A stretch of DNA of 64,000 nt from Camelus dromedarius (taxonomy: Eukaryota). Of the stretch, positions 4,290 through 46,178 are shown piece after piece. The stretch is from NCBI RefSeq assembly GCF_036321535.1, contig NC_087436.1, positions 14,880,001 to 14,944,000 on the forward strand, read 5' to 3'. The first letter of the stretch is position 1; every line of letters starts with the position of its first letter. Both the position numbers and the translations under genes were made by a program. The notes below the pieces were generated by a model, which was not told the DNA's origin, did no database searches, and saw only the letters and a list, made by a program, of their open reading frames with translations.

Positions 4290-4990
4290 TGCCAACAAAA
4301 TGTTGAGAGTCTTCTAATTTTTAGCCAATTGTTTAAAAGACGACAGATGGTAATGTTTATGAGATGTATAATTCAAGGCAAATCTGTCCAGATAGAGAGG
4401 ATAAAGCATCTTTAACTTGGCTAACAAATGTTGAGCTGCATTCAGATAAATAAAACCAACCGAACCCAAGGCACATAATTGCAATGCTGGAAAGATAGAA
4501 AACAATCTTTTTTTTTTAAATAAAAGAATTATATGTAACAGAATAAAGGGTTGGGCTATTTCTGTCTTTCCCTGCTGATCAGTTATCTTATCAGTCACAG
4601 GTGAAGGCAGGTTGCATCACCAAACCTTGAATATTTAACATTCGGCTACTCTTTCCAAGGTCATGCGGCACACCAGTTTTTCAGTCCTCCCAACTTTTTG
4701 TTTTGAGCCAAATAACATGATCTTGGCTTCATTAATATTTAAGAGTAATTTAGACTGTGCCAGATGATCTTAAAGCTCATTTAAATCAGCTTGAAGATAA
4801 TATTAAGCTTTCTCCCAGCATAATCTCCTACCATAAATGATAGTGTCATCTGCATATAAATGATGGGCTGAGGATGATAATGAACAGCAGAGATAATCAA
4901 TATAGAATGACAATGGCACTGGATTTCAGATAAATCTTTCGAGGACCCATTATTCTGCTCTCAGAGTTAAAGATGCATTGTTTTTTGTCC
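4290..4990 (-). mobile_element. Ancient L2/Crack-clade LINE reverse-transcriptase fossil (stops, frameshift)
   Basis: Minus-strand translation WVLERFI*NPVPLSFYIDYL...HLYADDTIIY (YADD at 4845-4856)...LQADLNEL*DHLAQSKLLLNINEAKIMLFGSKQK...LERVAE, then ORF 4314-4598 IYLNAAQHLLAKLKMLY. Order and spacing match LINE RT motifs (GVPQGSILGPLLF, YADD, KLxLNxxKTKxMLF, IERV-KYLG). Confidence 0.88.
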
Positions 4991-5864
4991 ACATCTTCTA
5001 AAGAAAACACAAAAGATTTTCATGAAATGAATCTTCTGTGCTGTTTAGGAGGGGGAGGTCCACAAATTACACAAGTACTGTTTTGCAAATGCAATAATTA
5101 GAGTTCACGCAGATCATTGCTTTATTGGATTGAACAACTGTCTCTTGGCAATTGTTGCTCCTCCTCTTCTTTCTCCCCCTCCTCCCACTTCCTCCCTCTC
5201 AGCCCTGGTCTTCCTACATGGCACTCACCGTGGTGGCACCTGCTGGTCTGCTCTGGAACGGTACCCATAGTCCTTGGAGTGGGACTGCCCTCCTGGAACC
5301 AAGGAGCCCTTTGACAGTGAAGGAGGAGATGTCACAGGGACACTGGCACTGGCTTCCCTCCTTGGGGTAAACTGCATTCTTGGTGGCTCTGCACAAAGCC
5401 TGGACGTTCCCACCTGAACATAGGGTCTCCTGGAGATAGTTTAAAAAGCTCATGTCACGTGGCAGAGAGTCAGTGGTTAAAAAAAGTTTTTCTGAAAGAG
5501 TCAGAACAGAGGGCAGAGCCTGGGCACGTTGGCAGCAGTGAGAGCTGGTGAGCGTGGGCTCAGTCAGAGGTCAGAACTGGGGGGAAGCACACCCCAAAGT
5601 CCGCTCTGTGGTTACTGACCTTCACCACGCAACATGAGGAAATCTCCAACTGGATTTAAGAAGTAGACATGGCTGACTTACCTTATAATGATCAGTAAAT
5701 GGTTAACTTATAATGATCAGGCAAGTGTGAGTCTCATGATCCGAAGCTCTTCTCCCTAAGTGTTAGCCATGGTTCTCCAACAAGGACTCAGGTGGACAAG
5801 GTGGACCTGGTCATCACCTGGGCCCCAAATTGTCACCTGCTGCTCCCAGTGGGAAAAATGATCT

Positions 5865-15340: not shown

Positions 15341-16158
15341 AAGCATGGCCGCAGAAGAGATTGTTTAAAAATCTAGGCTTGGTAATTGCAGTGCTGAGAC
15401 TGTAGAAAGCTGGAAAGAGTGACAAGAAGAAAAATCTGGATAAACTAAAAAATTAAAACTTTTCTTGAACCATGGGAGAGCGGAGGTTTCAGAGCAAACA
15501 AAAAGCCTAAAATCTGAGGAAAGATGGACTTCTTCCCTAAAAAGATGAGCATGAACACTGGCTCACCTATGACAGAGCACTGAAAGAAGAGATCTCACAT
15601 GCTGTCTTCATGGGTAAGAAGAATTTAGCTATGGTTTTAATGAATTGCCAAAAGTGAGGTGGGCTAGTGTGAGACTATATCACCCAGGGAGCTGCACACA
15701 CTAGGGACATTGCATCCACATCTCCTTGAACTTCTCTGGGTGCTTGTCTCCTGGGTAAGACTCAGGGCAGGGTGGGACACCTGAGAGAGCAGGCCTGGAG
15801 GAAAGAGCAGGAAGGCACAAAGCCTTCTCTCCCACAGAGCAAAAGCCTTGAGCTCCTGAAGGTGAGCAGCAAACCTTGACACCCCCAGGACACTGGGAAA
15901 GGGTGAGAGGAAACAATTCTACAAACCCCCAAACTGAAACCCAAAACATGCGGCCTGCCTAAGGCAAAGGCTGAGCCGCCAGCCCCATCCATCTTCCACC
16001 ACCAGGGTAGCAAACCTCAAGTAACAATTAACGGTTATCTTCTTCTCGATGAGAGGCAAAAGCAAGGAAAGAGACCCTCTTTGAGGCACAGGCACATGAA
16101 GGAAGCTGAAAAGTGAGGATAGAGTACTTGATACCCTCAGCATAAGGCAAAGTGAGGC

Positions 16159-16383
16159 CAGAGTTTCTCAGCTGTGGCACTACTGACATTTTGGGCCACA
16201 TAATTCTTGGTTATGGGGGAGCAGTCCTGTGCATTGTAGAATATTTAGTAGCATCCCTAGCCTCTGCCCACTAGATTCCAGTATCATCCAGCTCCTCCAG
16301 TTGTGACAGTCAAAAATATCTCCAGATACACACATTATAATACTTCCTCTGGAGGCAAAATAACTCCTTGTTGAGAGTCACTG
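16159..16383 (-). mobile_element. MER20 nested in L1M
   Basis: cagagtttctcagctgtggcactactgacattttgggcc...gttgagagtcactg. Confidence 0.88.
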
Positions 16384-19300
16384 CATTAGAGAAATTTGAA
16401 GCTAGCTGTGTACTGAAGGTGATCATAAGCATACTAAAACTCAAACTCACATTAACTTCTGACTAGATTGACTCAACCTCACACTGAAGGCCCGGAAGAA
16501 AAGGCATACCCATTTCCAGACTTAAACAGTATTTATTTCAGTCTCTATTATTCTATGCATGATGTCTAGCACTCAACAAAAAATCATGAGACAGACAAAA
16601 AAGCAAGAAAAATCAGCCCATTGTTAAGAGCCAAAGTTATCAACAGAATCAAACTCAGAGCCTGAGAGACAACCTGGATTTTGTTACTATCACAGGAAAT
16701 AACTATGATTGATATTTAAAAGTTTTAGGGGACTAACGAACAACATGCATGAACAGATGGAGAATTTCTGTAGAGAGATGAAAACTATAAGAAAGGGTCC
16801 AATGAAAATAACAAAAATAAAAAACAAGGTAACAAAGATGAAGAAAGCCTTTGAGGACACACAAATATAACTAACACAGCTGAGGATCAGCTGAGGAACT
16901 TGAAAACAGGTCAAAGGAAATTACACAAACTGAAAATATCAAAAGAAAAAAAAATGAGAGAGACAATAGAACCATGGGTCAGTATAAAATGGCCTAATAT
17001 ACAGGTAATTCAAATCTAACAGGATAAGAAAGAAAACAGGGCAGAAGGACTATTTGAAGAAAGAATGGCATAGAGTTTTTCAAAAGTAAAGGAAAACATC
17101 AATGGACAAATGTAAGAAGCTCAGAGTATCTCAAGCAGGAAAAACAAAAGAAGGAGGAGGAAGAAGGGGGGAAGGAGGAGGTAAAAAGGAGGAAGGGGAG
17201 GAACAATACTTCTGACACATCATATGCAGACATCTGAAAATCAAATATAAAGAAAAAGATAATAATTACAACCACCTTCTATTCCAAAATGACACATTCA
17301 GAAGACAGTGGAATGAAAATTTTGAAGTATTGAAAGAAAAAAAACCCAGTCAATCCAGAATTCTATACCTGGAGAAAATATCTTTCAAAATGAAGATGAA
17401 ATAAACACTTACTTAGACAAGCAAAAGCTGAGAGAATTCATTACCAGCAACTCTGCACCTCAAGAAATATTAAAGGACACTCTTCTGGAAGAAGAAATAT
17501 GATATCCAACAGAAACTTAGATTTACTTCCTCAAATGAGAGATCTCTGGAAATGGTTAAAATGAAGTGAAGATAAGAATACTTTTTTCTTAGTTTTAATC
17601 ATTCTCTAAAACAAAAGATAATTAACACTTTAAAACAGACATAGTAGAAATACATTGTGGATTTATTGCATCTGTAAAAATATGACAAAAATAGAACAAA
17701 AGATGGGAGGGAGGAGATGGAAGTTTGCTGCTATAAGGTCCTTACACTATACATGAAGTCTTATTATTCGAAGGTAGAATGTAATTAATTAAAGAATGTA
17801 TTGTAAACCTAAGGGCACTACAAAACATTTTGAACATAGGTTTAAATAATAAGCCAGTACTAGAGATAAAATTGAATGAAAAATATTCAGTCTAAAAGCA
17901 GGCAAAAAGAGGAATAAAGAGACAACATATGGAACAAGTAAAAAACAAGTATCAAAATGACACACTGAAGTTCAAACATATCAATATCGATTAAAAGACA
18001 GAAATTTTTGAATTGGATAGAAAAACAAGATCCAACTAGATGCTTTTTACAGGAAACCCAATTTAAATATGAATATTTAGGAAGGTTAAAAGTAAAAGAA
18101 TAGAAAAGGACATATCATGTAAATGCTAATTGAAAGAAAGCTAAGGTGACTATAATAATATCAGATAAAGTAGACTTTAGAACAAGAAACATTACCAGAA
18201 TTACAAAGGGATGTAACATAATAATAAAGGGGTTGATTCATCAAGAAAACATAATAATCCTAAAGAGTTAAGTACCTTACAACAGTACCTTGAAATATAG
18301 GAAGTGAAAGCTGATAGAAATAAACAGAGAAAAGATAAATCCAAAGTTACAATTAGGGATTTTAACTTTCCTATCTCAGTAACAGGTAGAACGAATGGAC
18401 AGAAAAATAAATAAAAAGATAGAAGATTTAACACTATCAACCAACTTAACCTAATTGACATTCACAGAACACTCCATCTAATAGTAGAATATACATTCTC
18501 TTTTTGAGTGCCCGTGGACATTCACAAGATAGATCATACTCTGAGCCATAAAGTAAATCGTAAGAAATTTAAATGAATTGAAATAATATAAAGTATGTTC
18601 TCTGACTAGATTTCTAGTTCAATAAAATTGAACTAGAAATCAACAGCAGAAAGATATCTGGAAAAGTCACAAATATTTAGAAATTAAATAATGTAATGCT
18701 ATTTAACCTATGATCAAAGTCAAAAGGGAAATTAGAAAACAGTTTGAATGGAATGAAAACAACATATCAAAATTTGTGAGGTAGAGCTGAAACAGTGCTT
18801 AGAAGGAATATATAGCTGTAAACACCTAATAAGAAAAGAAGATCTATAAGTCAATCAAGTCAATCTAAGCTTTCACATTAAGAAACTATAAAAAGAACAA
18901 AATAAACCTAAAATAAGCAGAAAAAGGAAATAATAAGAAAGGAGCAGAAATCAATAGCATTGCAAACAGGAAAACAATACAGACAAGCAATGAGACAAAA
19001 AGTTGGTTCTTTAAAATCAATAAAGCTGGTAAGACTTTACCCAGATTTAGTAAGGAAAAAAGCCTCAAATACCAATATAAGAAATGAAATAGGAAACACT
19101 ACAAATTATATAGACAGTGAAAGGCTAATTAGGGAATACTATGAAAAACTTTATGTCCATAAATTCAACAACTTGGATGAAAGGGAAAATTTGTCAAAAG
19201 GTATATTTAAGAAGTCATAGATAACTGGAATCATCATATATTTTATTAAAGAAATAATTTATAACTAAAAGCCTTTCTATAAGGAAACATCAAACCTAAG

Positions 19301-20989
19301 ATGGCTTTACTGCAAAATTCAACCAGATGATTTTGGTAAAAAGTAACACCAATAGTACACAAACTTTTTTAGAAAATAGAGAGAACAACCATTTCTTAAC
19401 TCCTTTTATGAAGCTAGCATTACCTGATACCAAAACCATGCAAAGATATTGCATGCTAAGAAAACTAAAAGCCAATATCTCTCATGAATATAAATGCAAA
19501 ATTTATCAACTGAATATTAGAAAATTGAATCCAGCAATATATGAAAAGGATAATACATCACATATTAAGTGGGATTTATCCCAGGAATGAAATCAACACT
19601 TTAAAATTTTTTCAGTGTAGTTTACCACATAAAGATTAAAGAAGAAAAACTATATGACCACCTCAATAGATACAGAAAAAGTATTTGATGAAATTCAAAG
19701 TTTGTTCATGATCCATCTGTATCGATCTATCTGTCTATTGATCTATTCTCAGAAAACTAAGAATAGACTCAATCTGATAAAGGGCATCTACGAAAAACCT
19801 ACAGCTAACATCACACTTGATATGTGACCAAATAATTTCCCCTTAAGACTGAGAAGAAGGTAAGGATATCCATTCTCACCACTTGTATTCAGAATTGTCC
19901 TGGAAGTCCTAGACAGTGCAATAAGGCAAGAAAAAGAAATAAAAGACATACAGGTTAGAAAGGAAGAAATAACTCTCTCCACTTGTAAGTATCATAATAG
20001 TCCATACAGAAAATCCCAAAGAATTTACAAAACAGCTACTAGAATTAATAAGTGAGGTCAGTAAGGATAAAGATTATAATATCAATATACCAAAAGCAAT
20101 TGTATTCTATACACTAGCAATGAATATTTGTAAATTGGAATTAAATATACCATTTAAAATAAAGTACCATTTACAACAGCACTTAAAAGCATTATGTAAG
20201 CTAACATCTAACAAAATATGTGCAAGATCTATATTCTAAACTATAAAACTTTGATGAAAGAACTAAGACCTAACTAAACGGAAAGTTATACTATGCTTAT
20301 GGGTTGGAAGTTTCAATATTGTTAAGATGTTAATTTCCCCCAAACTGATCTATAGATTCAATGCAATCCCAAGTAAAATCCCAGCAAGATTTTTAGCAGA
20401 AATCAACAAGCAGAAATCTAAAATGTATATGGAAACTATAATAGCCCAGCTAATTAAAAAAAACAGTTTGAGAAGTTGTGCTACTTATTTCAAGGCTTGT
20501 TCTAAAGCTACAACAATCAAGATGTTCTTGTATTGGTGAAAGGATAAACACAGAGATCAACTGAACAGCATAGAGAGACTAAAAATAGAACCACACGTAT
20601 ATCTTGGGTTGATTTCAACAAAATGACAAAGGTAGTCCAATGGAGAAAGGATGCCTTTCAATGAATAATGCTGGAAAGAATTAGATACATATATAACAAC
20701 AACAACAACAATAATAATAATTGCCATAATAATAACATTGACCCATAATTCTATAAAACTTCTAGAAGAAAACATAGGAGAAAAATCTTTGTGATCTTGA
20801 GTTAAACAATGAATTCTCAGATACGAAAACCAAAAAAAAAAAAATGATAAGTTGAACTTCATCAAAATTGAAAACTTTACTCTTTGGAAGATAGTGCTAT
20901 GATAATTAAAAAACAAAAATCCCACAGACAGGGAGAAAATATTTGCTAAGCACATATCTGATAAATAGCTTATATGCAGAATATGTAGA

Positions 20990-21119
20990 TGTTAGAACGT
21001 AGATGTCAACTAGACTTCTTGCCGTTACTGTTTCACGTTATATACATATATCAGATCATTACATTGTGCACCTGAAACTAATATAATGTTCTATGTCAAT
21101 TATATCTCAATCAAAAAAG
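20990..21119 (+). mobile_element. short younger L1 3' tail nested in L1M
   Basis: tgtgcacctgaaactaatataatgttctatgtcaattatatctcaat plus A-run; possible TSD gaatat(gt/ac)aga at 20979-20989 and 21120-21130. Confidence 0.7.
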
Positions 21120-21908
21120 GAATATACAGAATTCTTACAACACAATTGTAGGAACACAAACAACTTCATAAAATGTGAGCAAAAAGTTTAATAGACATGT
21201 CACCAAAGAAGCTATTTGATGGCCAATAAGCATGTAAAAAGATACACAATATTGTTGGTAATCATGGAAATGCAAATTAAAATCATAGTAAGCTACAACT
21301 ATCTATTAGATATCTATTAGAACGGCTGAAAGAAAAGAAAATCTGAAAATGATAAGTGCTGTTATGCTGTGGAATAGCTGGAATTCTCCACACACCTCAC
21401 AGGAGTGAAATGGTACAGACATTTTGGAAAACAGTTTGGTGGCTTCTGTCAAGTTGAACATATACTTACCACAGGGCCCAACAATCTCACTCCTAGGAAT
21501 TAATCAGAGAAAAATAAAAACTCGAGGTCACACAAAAATCAGCATTTGGATGTTTATAGCAGCTTCATTAATAATCACCAAAAAATTAGAAATAACCCAA
21601 TGTCCTTCAACATTTATTTAATAGCTAAATAAACCGTGGTACATTCACACACTGGAATACTTCCCAGCGATACAAAGGAACAAGCTGCGGATATGTGCAG
21701 CTCGTATTTATCTGAAGTGAATTCTGCTAAGTGAAAGAAGATTCAAAAGGCTACATACTGTGTGATTCCAACTCCATGACATTCTGAAAAAGGCAAAACT
21801 ATGGAGATATACCAGATCGGTGGTGGTCAGGAGCCAGGGTTGACCCATCAGAGTTGACTGGGAAGGGGCCTGAGGGAACTTTGTGGGATGATGGGAACAT
21901 TTTCTATC

Positions 21909-22000
21909 ATTTTTTTAAGAGGAGGTACTGGGGATTGAACCCAGGACCTTGTGCATGCTAAGCATGTGCCCTGCAACTGAGCTCTTTATTATACTCTCCC
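21909..22000 (-). mobile_element. camelid tRNA-derived SINE (vic-1-like), short form
   Basis: ggaggtactggggattgaacccagg (antisense B-box); exact 11-bp TSD cattttctatc at 21898-21908 and 22001-22011. Confidence 0.9.
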
Positions 22001-32040: not shown

Positions 32041-32371
32041 TTTCACGAGACACCTTACAGGTTTTTATGAAAAGAACAAGGAGCAATCCCACCTCACTCA
32101 GCAATGACAGCGGAGCAAGGAAACGGAAAGTGAGGGGATGTCAGGAACTCGCACCATCAAGCACATACAGTGCGCAGGGATTTCGTGATGTAATAACACA
32201 CTCGGCTCGAGGAGAAACCTCATACCTGTCAAGTAGTCACTATTGGCTCCTTCTCACGGGCATAACCGGTATAGAGGGACACGTGGCTGACTTCGCTGGA
32301 AAGGGCAGAATGCCTATGGCGCTGACATCTTTGTGGGAAATCTAAGAGGGGAAGGTATGAGGAGTCTGGAC

Positions 32372-32580
32372 TGCGTCACACCTCCCCAGACCCGACCCTG
32401 GGCCGCGTCAGGAGCCCGTCACATGCGCTTAGAGTCGTCCCTGCGCACAGCTGAGCGCGCTTGTCTTACTAAATGCGCGACCGCCCCTCTGGGCCGGGAG
32501 GTCCTTGGATAGAGGGTCTGTCTCCACGGCGCTGGCCGCTGTGTCCCCGAGGTCCGGCCTAAGAGGTGCTTTACAAGTGC
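32372..32580. promoter_or_regulatory. small CpG-dense patch, candidate regulatory element
   Basis: About 19 CpG in ~190 bp; CGTCA half-sites and TGCGC motifs. Confidence 0.4.
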
Positions 32581-33043
32581 TGGTGGGATCCATCCAGCCC
32601 ACAGGCAATGTAGATTTCAGTAATTAAAACTGTTTTCCCGGCACTGGGATTTGTCAGCAGGAGAACAAGGAGTCCAAAGAGCTCTGTGAGTTGACTTCCT
32701 GGTTTTTTATTTCCGAGGAGGGAGTGTCTGAACTCTCTCTTGCAGTGACTGTCATTCTTTCATTGCTTGACAGACGTTCGCTGACCATCCCACGTGTGCC
32801 AGGCAGAGTGCAGGGTGCAGAGTCTACTGAGAGGCTGCCCCACTTCATGCCCAGGAACAAACAAAGCCCAGGCAAGTGTGATCATGCCCAGAAGGCAGAT
32901 GCAGGTCTCACCAGAAAGATCACAGACTTAAAAATAATCCATAATCATGCAAACCTTTGAGTCCACAGCACAGTTCAAAACTGTCTCCTAAGGTGACCTT
33001 GAGGTCCCACAGAGTCATCTTCAGATGGTTGCCCAGAAGCCCC

Positions 33044-37269: not shown

Positions 37270-37400
37270 TTTTTTATTCCCCGGGGGTGGGAGGGGGTAA
37301 TTAGGTTTGTTTATTTACTTTTAATGGAGGTGCTGGGGATTGAACCCAGGCCCTCATGCACGCTAGGCACACACTCTACCACTGAGCTATACCCTCCCCC
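37270..37400 (-). mobile_element. camelid vic-1-like SINE, long form
   Basis: gtaattaggtttgtttatttac...ggaggtgctggggattgaacccagg...ctctaccactgagctataccctcccc (antisense A and B boxes). Confidence 0.9.
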
Positions 37401-45840: not shown

Positions 45841-45942
45841 TCTTTCTTTTCTTTTCTTTTTTTAATGGAGGTACTGGGGATTGAACCCAGGACCTTGTGC
45901 ATGCTAAGCACACACTCTACCACTGAGCTATACCTCCACCCC
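45841..45942 (-). mobile_element. camelid vic-1-like SINE, short form
   Basis: T-rich tail, ggaggtactggggattgaacccaggaccttgtgcatgctaagcacacactctaccactgagctatacc. Confidence 0.92.
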
Positions 45943-46178
45943 CGCTCCAGGCCTTTTCTTAGTCTATTCTCTCTTCCAGTGATGCCGTCTCTCTTTACCA
46001 CCAGGAAGAATCTCATCGAATCCATCGGGGTCATCTTACATGCCTCCTCCGTTTCCTTCAATCTCTGCTATTCTCACTGGGAGAGAGCTTTCTTGCATTT
46101 GGATCCTTGTAACCATTTATCTTCATTGCACTAGAATGATTTCCTATTTCGTGGATGATTTTTTTCCCCTTTCTCTTA

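What the first reader, a model, noticed from the sequence alone, without database searches (positions are those of the whole stretch)
4290..4990. Fossil reverse transcriptase of an ancient L2/Crack-type LINE, still largely in frame
Seen: one minus-strand frame from ~4950 to ~4640 reads WVLERFI*NPVPLSFYIDYLCCSLSSSAHHLYADDTIIYGRRLCWEKA*YYLQADLNEL*DHLAQSKLLLNINEAKIMLFGSKQKVGRT...LERVAE. After a frameshift, the ORF at 4314-4598 gives KKKRL...IYLNAAQHLLAKLKMLY...RF...HYH. Known: these match non-LTR RT motifs in order and spacing (GVPQGSILGPLLFxxYINDL, YADD, LQxDL...KLxLNxxKTKxMLF, IERVxxxKYLG, thumb). The HLYADDT and IYxNA..L..L..Y style resembles Crack/L2-clade elements of fish and reptiles, not mammalian L1 or the degraded L2a-type copies elsewhere in this window. 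Inference: about 100 codons without a frameshift in so old an element suggests slow evolution, i.e. an exapted conserved non-coding element. The stop codons rule out a functional protein.
Basis: partly seen in the sequence, partly recalled or inferred. Interest (0 to 1): 0.75.

Follow-up and report, generated by a model that had tools for sequence, protein, structure and literature searches.

The report
Ancient LINE fossil with conserved core
A very old, broken piece of a jumping gene sits alone downstream of the FBXW7 gene, and about 200 bases of it have changed several times more slowly than the neighbouring bases, so it was probably kept as a regulatory switch, a known kind of recycling.

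Summary
Window 5030-4290 (minus strand) is a single-copy fossil of a non-LTR retrotransposon ORF2, covering the RT palm and thumb. Pfam RVT_1 gives E=6.6e-4, below the curated cut-off. An HMM built from relatives gives E=1.5e-23, and the reversed control gives nothing. It is not L1. It resembles the L2/Crack/Daphne branch, but the clade is unresolved. Short ORFs called in unnamed assemblies (probably other mammals) match it. Within one such sequence, identity is 51 of 61 codons at 4290-4490 against 19 of 54 in the adjacent linker (p=1e-7; d 0.11 vs 0.66). All 31 of 31 silent positions of the RT frame are kept and that lineage has a frameshift, so the constraint acts on DNA, not protein. The site lies in the gene-poor interval between FBXW7 and GATB. 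The best reading is an exapted distal regulatory element, probably acting on FBXW7; its function is inferred, not shown. Such fossils are a published class (Frith 2022). The scan had not noted this locus.

The parts
4290..5030 (-). Internal fragment of a CR1-group (L2/Crack/Daphne-like) LINE ORF2, about 740 bp. It is AT-rich (35% GC against 48-50% in the flanks) and single copy. No endonuclease part or 3' tail was recognised. Ends are approximate.
4950..5030 (-). Decayed lead-in to the RT palm; matched by P0010 at 11 of 22 codons with three frameshifts
4638..4949 (-). RT palm and fingers: 104 codons in one frame, 3 stops, YADD motif; moderately slow (d 0.15-0.29 to five matching ORFs of unknown species)
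4490..4650 (-). Linker, fast-evolving (d 0.66-0.72 in the P0008/P0145 lineage); probably holds two compensating frameshifts
4290..4490 (-). Conserved core derived from the RT thumb (d 0.05-0.11 to six matching ORFs). Constraint is at DNA level. It carries SOX-, forkhead- and NFI-half-site-like words (weak enrichment).

Best explanation
An L2/Crack/Daphne-type LINE inserted before the split of the mammal lineages sampled here and died. Most of it decayed or was deleted. About 200 bp from its RT thumb region, and perhaps patches of the palm, were then kept by purifying selection as cis-regulatory DNA: a distal enhancer or silencer bound by transcription factors. The most likely target is FBXW7, whose F-box exon lies about 155 kb away; GATB is about 344 kb away. 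Shown: LINE origin, single copy, uneven rate of change, constraint not on the RT protein, and position. Inferred: orthology of the matching sequences, age, regulatory function and target gene.
For: LINE origin: 128 of 134 phmmer hits are LINE-type RT proteins at 21-42% identity. Of 8 of these scanned in Pfam, all have RVT_1 and the 6 long ones also have an endonuclease domain. Colinear homology spans palm to thumb. Single copy: 1 DNA match in the 2.3 Gb genome; the protein search gave one other match at E=0.9 with no DNA similarity. Constraint: 6 of 134 hits are short ORFs at 47-93% identity. P0008 spans 4732-4301 and matches 51 of 61 codons in the core against 19 of 54 in the linker (Fisher p=1.3e-7), with ML distance 0.11 (0.06-0.18) against 0.66 (0.48-0.92). 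P0006 shows the same trend, 50 of 57 against 7 of 14 (p=0.004). Four other core ORFs differ from each other at 4-8 of 57 sites and agree against the window at 3 sites, so they are distinct lineages and not near-copies of this genome. Not protein: P0008 and P0145 have a 1-base frameshift inside the core and read on in another frame at 29 of 31 codons. This implies that 31 of 31 third positions of the RT frame are kept; 21-25 would be expected if only the protein were constrained (P 1e-3 to 6e-6). Not structured RNA: fold z +0.5 and +0.8. Position: TMEM154 at C1:14.447-14.456 Mb, an F-box exon at 14.729 Mb, this element at 14.884 Mb, GATB at 15.228-15.271 Mb. No convincing coding exon was found in 84 kb. 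Prior: such fossils are strongly conserved, lie in gene deserts, and some overlap regulatory elements (PMC9004415).
Against: No nucleotide alignment to another species was obtained. All cross-species numbers come from translated ORF calls of unknown species, picked by similarity to the query, and aligned with my own frameshift-aware script under an assumed K80 model (kappa 4). P0008 and P0145 are related and are not independent. Orthology rests on single copy number, not on flanks. Motif enrichment is weak: SOX p=0.035 and NFI half-site p=0.018, uncorrected, 14 motifs tried. There are no chromatin, expression or reporter data. The F-box exon is called FBXW7 from gene order (recalled human synteny), not from its sequence. 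The exon scan was crude and only 22 candidates went to Pfam.
Confidence: 0.6

Rival explanations
1. The core is conserved because it is part of an RNA, such as a lncRNA exon or a transcript 3' end, and not a DNA switch.
For: An AATAAA lies on the plus strand at 4449. A pyrimidine tract ending in AG sits at the upstream edge of the core on the minus strand.
Against: AATAAA is at chance level (p=0.35). There is no stable fold on either strand. The AG is not implied by the P0006 and P0007 translations, which have Met there. No coding exon was found nearby. Expression was not tested.
Confidence: 0.15
2. It is a neutral fossil. The apparent conservation comes from picking the best-matching ORFs, from close relatives, or from locally low mutation in AT-rich, CpG-poor DNA.
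For: The species are unknown and the hits were selected by score. The core has only 2 CpG.
Against: The contrast lies inside one contiguous sequence (51 of 61 vs 19 of 54), and the linker has the same composition (34% vs 36% GC; 1 CpG) yet d=0.66.
Confidence: 0.12
3. The thumb frame is a domesticated micro-protein or coding exon of 57 aa.
For: Four Logan ORFs keep an open frame ending at the same stop; three start at the same Met and the fourth has it internally.
Against: This genome lacks that ATG. The P0008/P0145 lineage is frameshifted in mid-core. Silent positions are kept (31 of 31), and several changes are radical (Leu to Pro, Gln to Pro). The ORFs were visible only because gene callers need an open frame.
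Confidence: 0.04
4. The matching ORFs are paralogous copies of a small ancient repeat family (X_LINE or UCON type) with a family-wide conserved core, not orthologues.
For: All matches stay within LINE-derived sequence, so no flank proves orthology. Such families exist: X13_LINE is listed as Crack, and X15/X24_LINE and UCON49/86 as L2 (PMC5753468, passages).
Against: A second copy near 90% identity should have been found in this genome, and none was (those searches score only the best candidates).
Confidence: 0.07

Closest known systems
Ancient exapted TE protein fossils of the L2, L2-Crack, L2-Daphne and L2-Kiri types (Frith 2022, PMC9004415; parts 1-4 of 8 read, passages, and a search of its one supplement)
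   Same: Degraded LINE RT fragment with stops, in a gene-poor interval, with strong non-coding conservation. The paper counts 25 L2-Crack and 167 L2 pre-amniote fossils in human beyond those listed singly.
   Different: About 740 bp here, against 95-298 bp for the nine L2-group rows of its tables 3 and 4. FBXW7 and GATB are not named in its text or supplement. Its full list on GitHub could not be checked. Age beyond mammals was not tested here.
Repbase ancient repeats X13_LINE (Crack), X15_LINE, X24_LINE, UCON49, UCON86 (L2) (Kojima 2018, PMC5753468, passages)
   Same: Ancient CR1-group LINE traces in mammal genomes.
   Different: Those are multi-copy families with consensus sequences; this is single copy here. 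Identity with any of them could not be tested.
APE-RT LINE ORF2 of the P0025/P0016 type and the P0024/P0013 type (unlabelled; fish-like and invertebrate-like by recall)
   Same: Motif order and spacing from the palm through the thumb; best blastp scores 54-62 bits.
   Different: Only 26-38% identical. The fossil has a long branch (2.78) and does not join the 8-row motif group in the quick tree.
Mammalian L1 ORF2 (this genome's own, L010)
   Same: Shares the YADD motif.
   Different: blastp 18.9 bits, E=17, over 9 residues only.

Membership tests
non-LTR retrotransposon (APE-RT LINE) ORF2 remnant | RT domain with the YADD motif and neighbouring motifs in order | tested here: met
   Pfam RVT_1 E=6.6e-4 but under the cut-off
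non-LTR retrotransposon (APE-RT LINE) ORF2 remnant | Closest relatives are endonuclease-plus-RT ORF2 proteins | tested here: met
   6 of 6 long hits scanned carry Exo_endo_phos-type and RVT_1 domains
intact LINE | Endonuclease domain, open ORF2, 3' tail, target-site duplication | tested here: not met
   12 stops in 280 codons; no other HMM hit nearby. The tail and target-site duplication were not searched for specifically.
L1 clade | RT most similar to L1 ORF2 | tested here: not met
   18.9 bits against 54-62 bits
canonical L2 (eutherian L2a-d, fish L2) | RT groups with L2 references; thumb motif SRLDYxN (recalled) | tested here: inconclusive
   0 of 128 hits carry the recalled motif, though many are too short to reach the thumb; no labelled L2 reference was available
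Crack clade | RT phylogeny with Repbase Crack references (RTclass1) | not testable with these tools
   Unlabelled quick tree unresolved. The supplement of PMC13343379 cuts cells at 400 characters (part 1 of 58 read).
Crack or Daphne clade | AT-rich ORF2 (GC 33-35% against 42-55% for L2; PMC7140322 table 1, passages) | tested here: inconclusive
   The fossil is 35% GC, but conserved non-coding DNA is often AT-rich (recalled)
exapted conserved non-coding element | Slower than neutral change across species | tested here: met
   Indirect, from translated ORFs: d 0.11 vs 0.66 within one sequence
exapted conserved non-coding element | Constraint not on a protein | tested here: met
   31 of 31 silent positions kept; frameshift in one lineage
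exapted conserved non-coding element | Orthology shown by syntenic flanks; phastCons or phyloP | not testable with these tools
   No other vertebrate genome could be searched; metagenome scans gave no orthologue
enhancer | Open chromatin, factor binding, reporter activity, target contact | not testable with these tools
   Motif scan only, weak

The most novel reading that the evidence does not exclude
This is an unannotated, unusually long (about 740 bp) relic of a Crack/Daphne-type LINE that inserted before the amniote or tetrapod split. Such a lineage is reported as absent from living lobe-finned vertebrates. Its RT-thumb DNA became a mammal-wide distal enhancer of the tumour-suppressor and neurodevelopmental gene FBXW7.
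Probability: 0.15. Interest if true: 0.55.

Novelty: new member of a known kind. Interest (0 to 1): 0.33.

Why it matters
It gives a concrete, testable candidate regulatory element of about 200 bp near FBXW7. FBXW7 is described as a tumour suppressor and a neurodevelopmental-disorder gene (search listing). The long readable RT could also help place an extinct tetrapod LINE lineage. The class itself is established, with hundreds of members, so a specialist would not be surprised.

Tried and rejected
The word-indexed homologue search of longer proteins gave 0 hits among 924 candidates. PDB gave 0 hits. The second own-genome match, L003, is chance. The metagenome scan by protein found 129 pattern matches and none was confirmed. 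The scan by a 20-base word gave 6 loci, all without flanking similarity. Sequencing runs: 14 of 23 listed hold all sampled words, 11 of them flagged as possible sources. Five RNA metagenome runs hold 7-9% of the words, but no reads were laid on the stretch, so this is no evidence, and expression and nucleotide divergence remain open. The own-genome search with P0025 returned long L1-like frames only and used a strict first look. The ESM Atlas search with part of P0025 gave RVT_1 clusters without clade names. The careful tree did not finish; the quick tree used 62 of 130 rows, the rest being too short or lacking the motif. Rfam on 20 kb upstream gave 0 hits; the element itself was not scanned with Rfam. 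Pfam of 22 exon candidates gave 1 weak hit at E=0.022; whole-frame Pfam scans of the window were not obtained. Only 20 kb of flank was fetched. RUNX and transferrin searches showed that another contig (C2) carries those genes. Two paper searches on the FBXW7-GATB interval (15 of 548 and 12 of 48 listed, listings only) showed no paper on this element. That is not proof that none exists.

Full report
OBSERVATION. Translation of the minus strand shows the quoted RT-like text at 4949-4638 (104 codons, 3 stops) and the thumb-like ORF at 4616-4314. Two of four frameshift-aware alignments place shifts near 4619 and 4555-4525. The stretch 4290-5030 is 35% GC against 48-50% in its flanks. The window is G000:C1:14880001-14944000 in a 2.3 Gb genome. 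It is mammalian by its L1 content and gene order; earlier scan notes call it camelid (not checked by me beyond gene order).

IDENTITY. Pfam gives RVT_1 at E=6.6e-4, under the curated cut-off, and nothing for the other two minus frames. phmmer over 1.84 billion proteins gave 134 hits. Of these, 128 are LINE-type RT proteins at 21-42% identity. The six long ones scanned carry an endonuclease and an RT domain. An HMM of 41 longer hits finds this locus at 78.7 bits and nothing else above 7.4 bits in the window, and nothing in the reversed window. Homology is colinear from the palm through the thumb and fades at about 5030 and 4300. The genome's own L1 ORF2 scores 18.9 bits against 54-62 for the relatives. 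None of the 128 hits shows the canonical L2 thumb motif that I recall. The motif style and the AT-richness fit Crack or Daphne (PMC7140322, passages), but no labelled references were available. The quick tree leaves the fossil on a long, unresolved branch, and Crack and Daphne are reported not to form well-supported single groups (PMC13343379, passages). Verdict: CR1 group, L2/Crack/Daphne-like, clade open. It is single copy by DNA search, with one chance protein match.

CONSERVATION. The remaining 6 hits are short ORFs from Logan or ENA assemblies at 47-93% identity, with 8 further cluster members of the same kind. They read like gene-caller ORFs on the same dead DNA in other species. I aligned 11 of these 14 with a frameshift-aware script and left out three near-copies. 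P0008 spans 4732-4301. It matches 17 of 25 codons in the palm, 19 of 54 in the linker and 51 of 61 at 4290-4490 (core vs linker p=1.3e-7). The ML distances are 0.18, 0.66 and 0.11. Its relative P0145 gives 0.27, 0.72 and 0.09. P0006 gives 7 of 14 against 50 of 57. P0007, P0141 and P0142 match the core at 52, 50 and 51 of 56. These four differ from one another at 4-8 of 57 sites and share three states against the window. A linker distance near 0.7 would suit a rodent, but this is inference, since no species is given. Palm matches from P0009, P0010 and P0018 (d 0.15-0.29) cannot be calibrated; in P0009 and P0018 the palm and linker intervals overlap. So the firm signal is a core of about 200 bp that is about six times slower than its neighbour. 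The limits are that the data are translated ORFs, chosen by similarity, and that orthology rests on single copy number.

NOT PROTEIN, PROBABLY NOT STRUCTURED RNA. P0008 and P0145 shift frame by one base inside the core and then match the window's other frame at 29 of 31 codons. The middle base of each such codon is a third position of the RT frame, and 31 of 31 are kept. Protein-only selection predicts 21-25 (P 1e-3 to 6e-6). This genome also lacks the ATG that starts the 57-aa ORF in others. Folding energies are no better than shuffles (z +0.5, +0.8). Of 14 motifs tried, SOX words (3, p=0.035) and NFI half-sites (3, p=0.018) are mildly above shuffles without correction; forkhead (2, p=0.10) and AATAAA (1, p=0.35) are not.

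CONTEXT. Codon and splice scans of the window and of 20 kb upstream (codon scan only) gave no convincing coding exon, and 22 candidates gave one weak Pfam hit. Pfam searches of the genome place MamL-1 at C1:23.6 Mb, an MH1 domain at 20.2 Mb, GatB_N at 15.23-15.27 Mb, an F-box at 14.729 Mb and TMEM154 at 14.45 Mb. By recalled human gene order the F-box gene is FBXW7. The element, at 14.884 Mb, lies in the gene-poor interval between FBXW7 and GATB, about 155 kb from the F-box exon and 344 kb from GATB.

MECHANISM. The most likely reading (0.6) is that a dead ancient LINE fragment was kept in part as distal cis-regulatory DNA, with FBXW7 the nearest candidate target. Origin, single copy, rate contrast, DNA-level constraint and position are shown. 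Orthology, age, factor binding and target are inferred. The rivals are a conserved RNA exon or 3' end (0.15), a neutral fossil with ascertainment bias (0.12), paralogues of a small repeat family (0.07) and a micro-protein (0.04).

KNOWN CONTEXT AND VERDICT. Frith 2022 (PMC9004415; parts 1-4 of 8, passages and a supplement search) describes this kind: conserved L2, Crack, Daphne and Kiri protein fossils in gene deserts, some overlapping regulatory elements, with 25 L2-Crack and 167 L2 further pre-amniote cases counted. FBXW7 and GATB are not named there, but the full list lies outside the paper and may hold this locus. Kojima 2018 (PMC5753468, passages) lists X13_LINE as the human Crack trace. 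This is a new member of a known kind, possibly already annotated. It is longer than the nine L2-group fossils listed singly (95-298 bp). Interest 0.33.

Noticed in passing
L041:3340-3419 (+), G000:C1 about 14,863,340, 16.6 kb left of the window: A CpG-rich block of 80 bases between an AG and a GT that looks like an exon, open in more than one frame. One plus-strand and several overlapping translations gave no Pfam hit; the best PDB match was E=0.8. Possibly a non-coding exon or a conserved element.
   Followed up: partly
window 4764-4801: Imperfect palindrome of 38 bases (84% self-match) inside the RT palm part of the fossil.
   Followed up: no
window about 16000-22000: A-rich, low-GC stretch with broken L1-like ORF2 frames on the plus strand at 18912-20539; L1 identity is by recall.
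   Followed up: no
window about 37310-37400 and 45860-45945: Copies of a short tRNA-like SINE, seen in ORF translations; family recalled as camelid-type.
   Followed up: no
L010-L039 (many contigs): The genome holds many L1-like loci with open frames of up to about 1290-1370 codons, which suggests recent L1 activity.
   Followed up: no
protein cluster 2, P0140: A 401-aa protein named as a glycosyltransferase is clustered with the 57-aa P0007; it looks like a clustering artefact.
   Followed up: no
window 32251-32750: The only CpG-island-like 500 bp window in the 64 kb (GC 0.56, CpG o/e 0.66).
   Followed up: no
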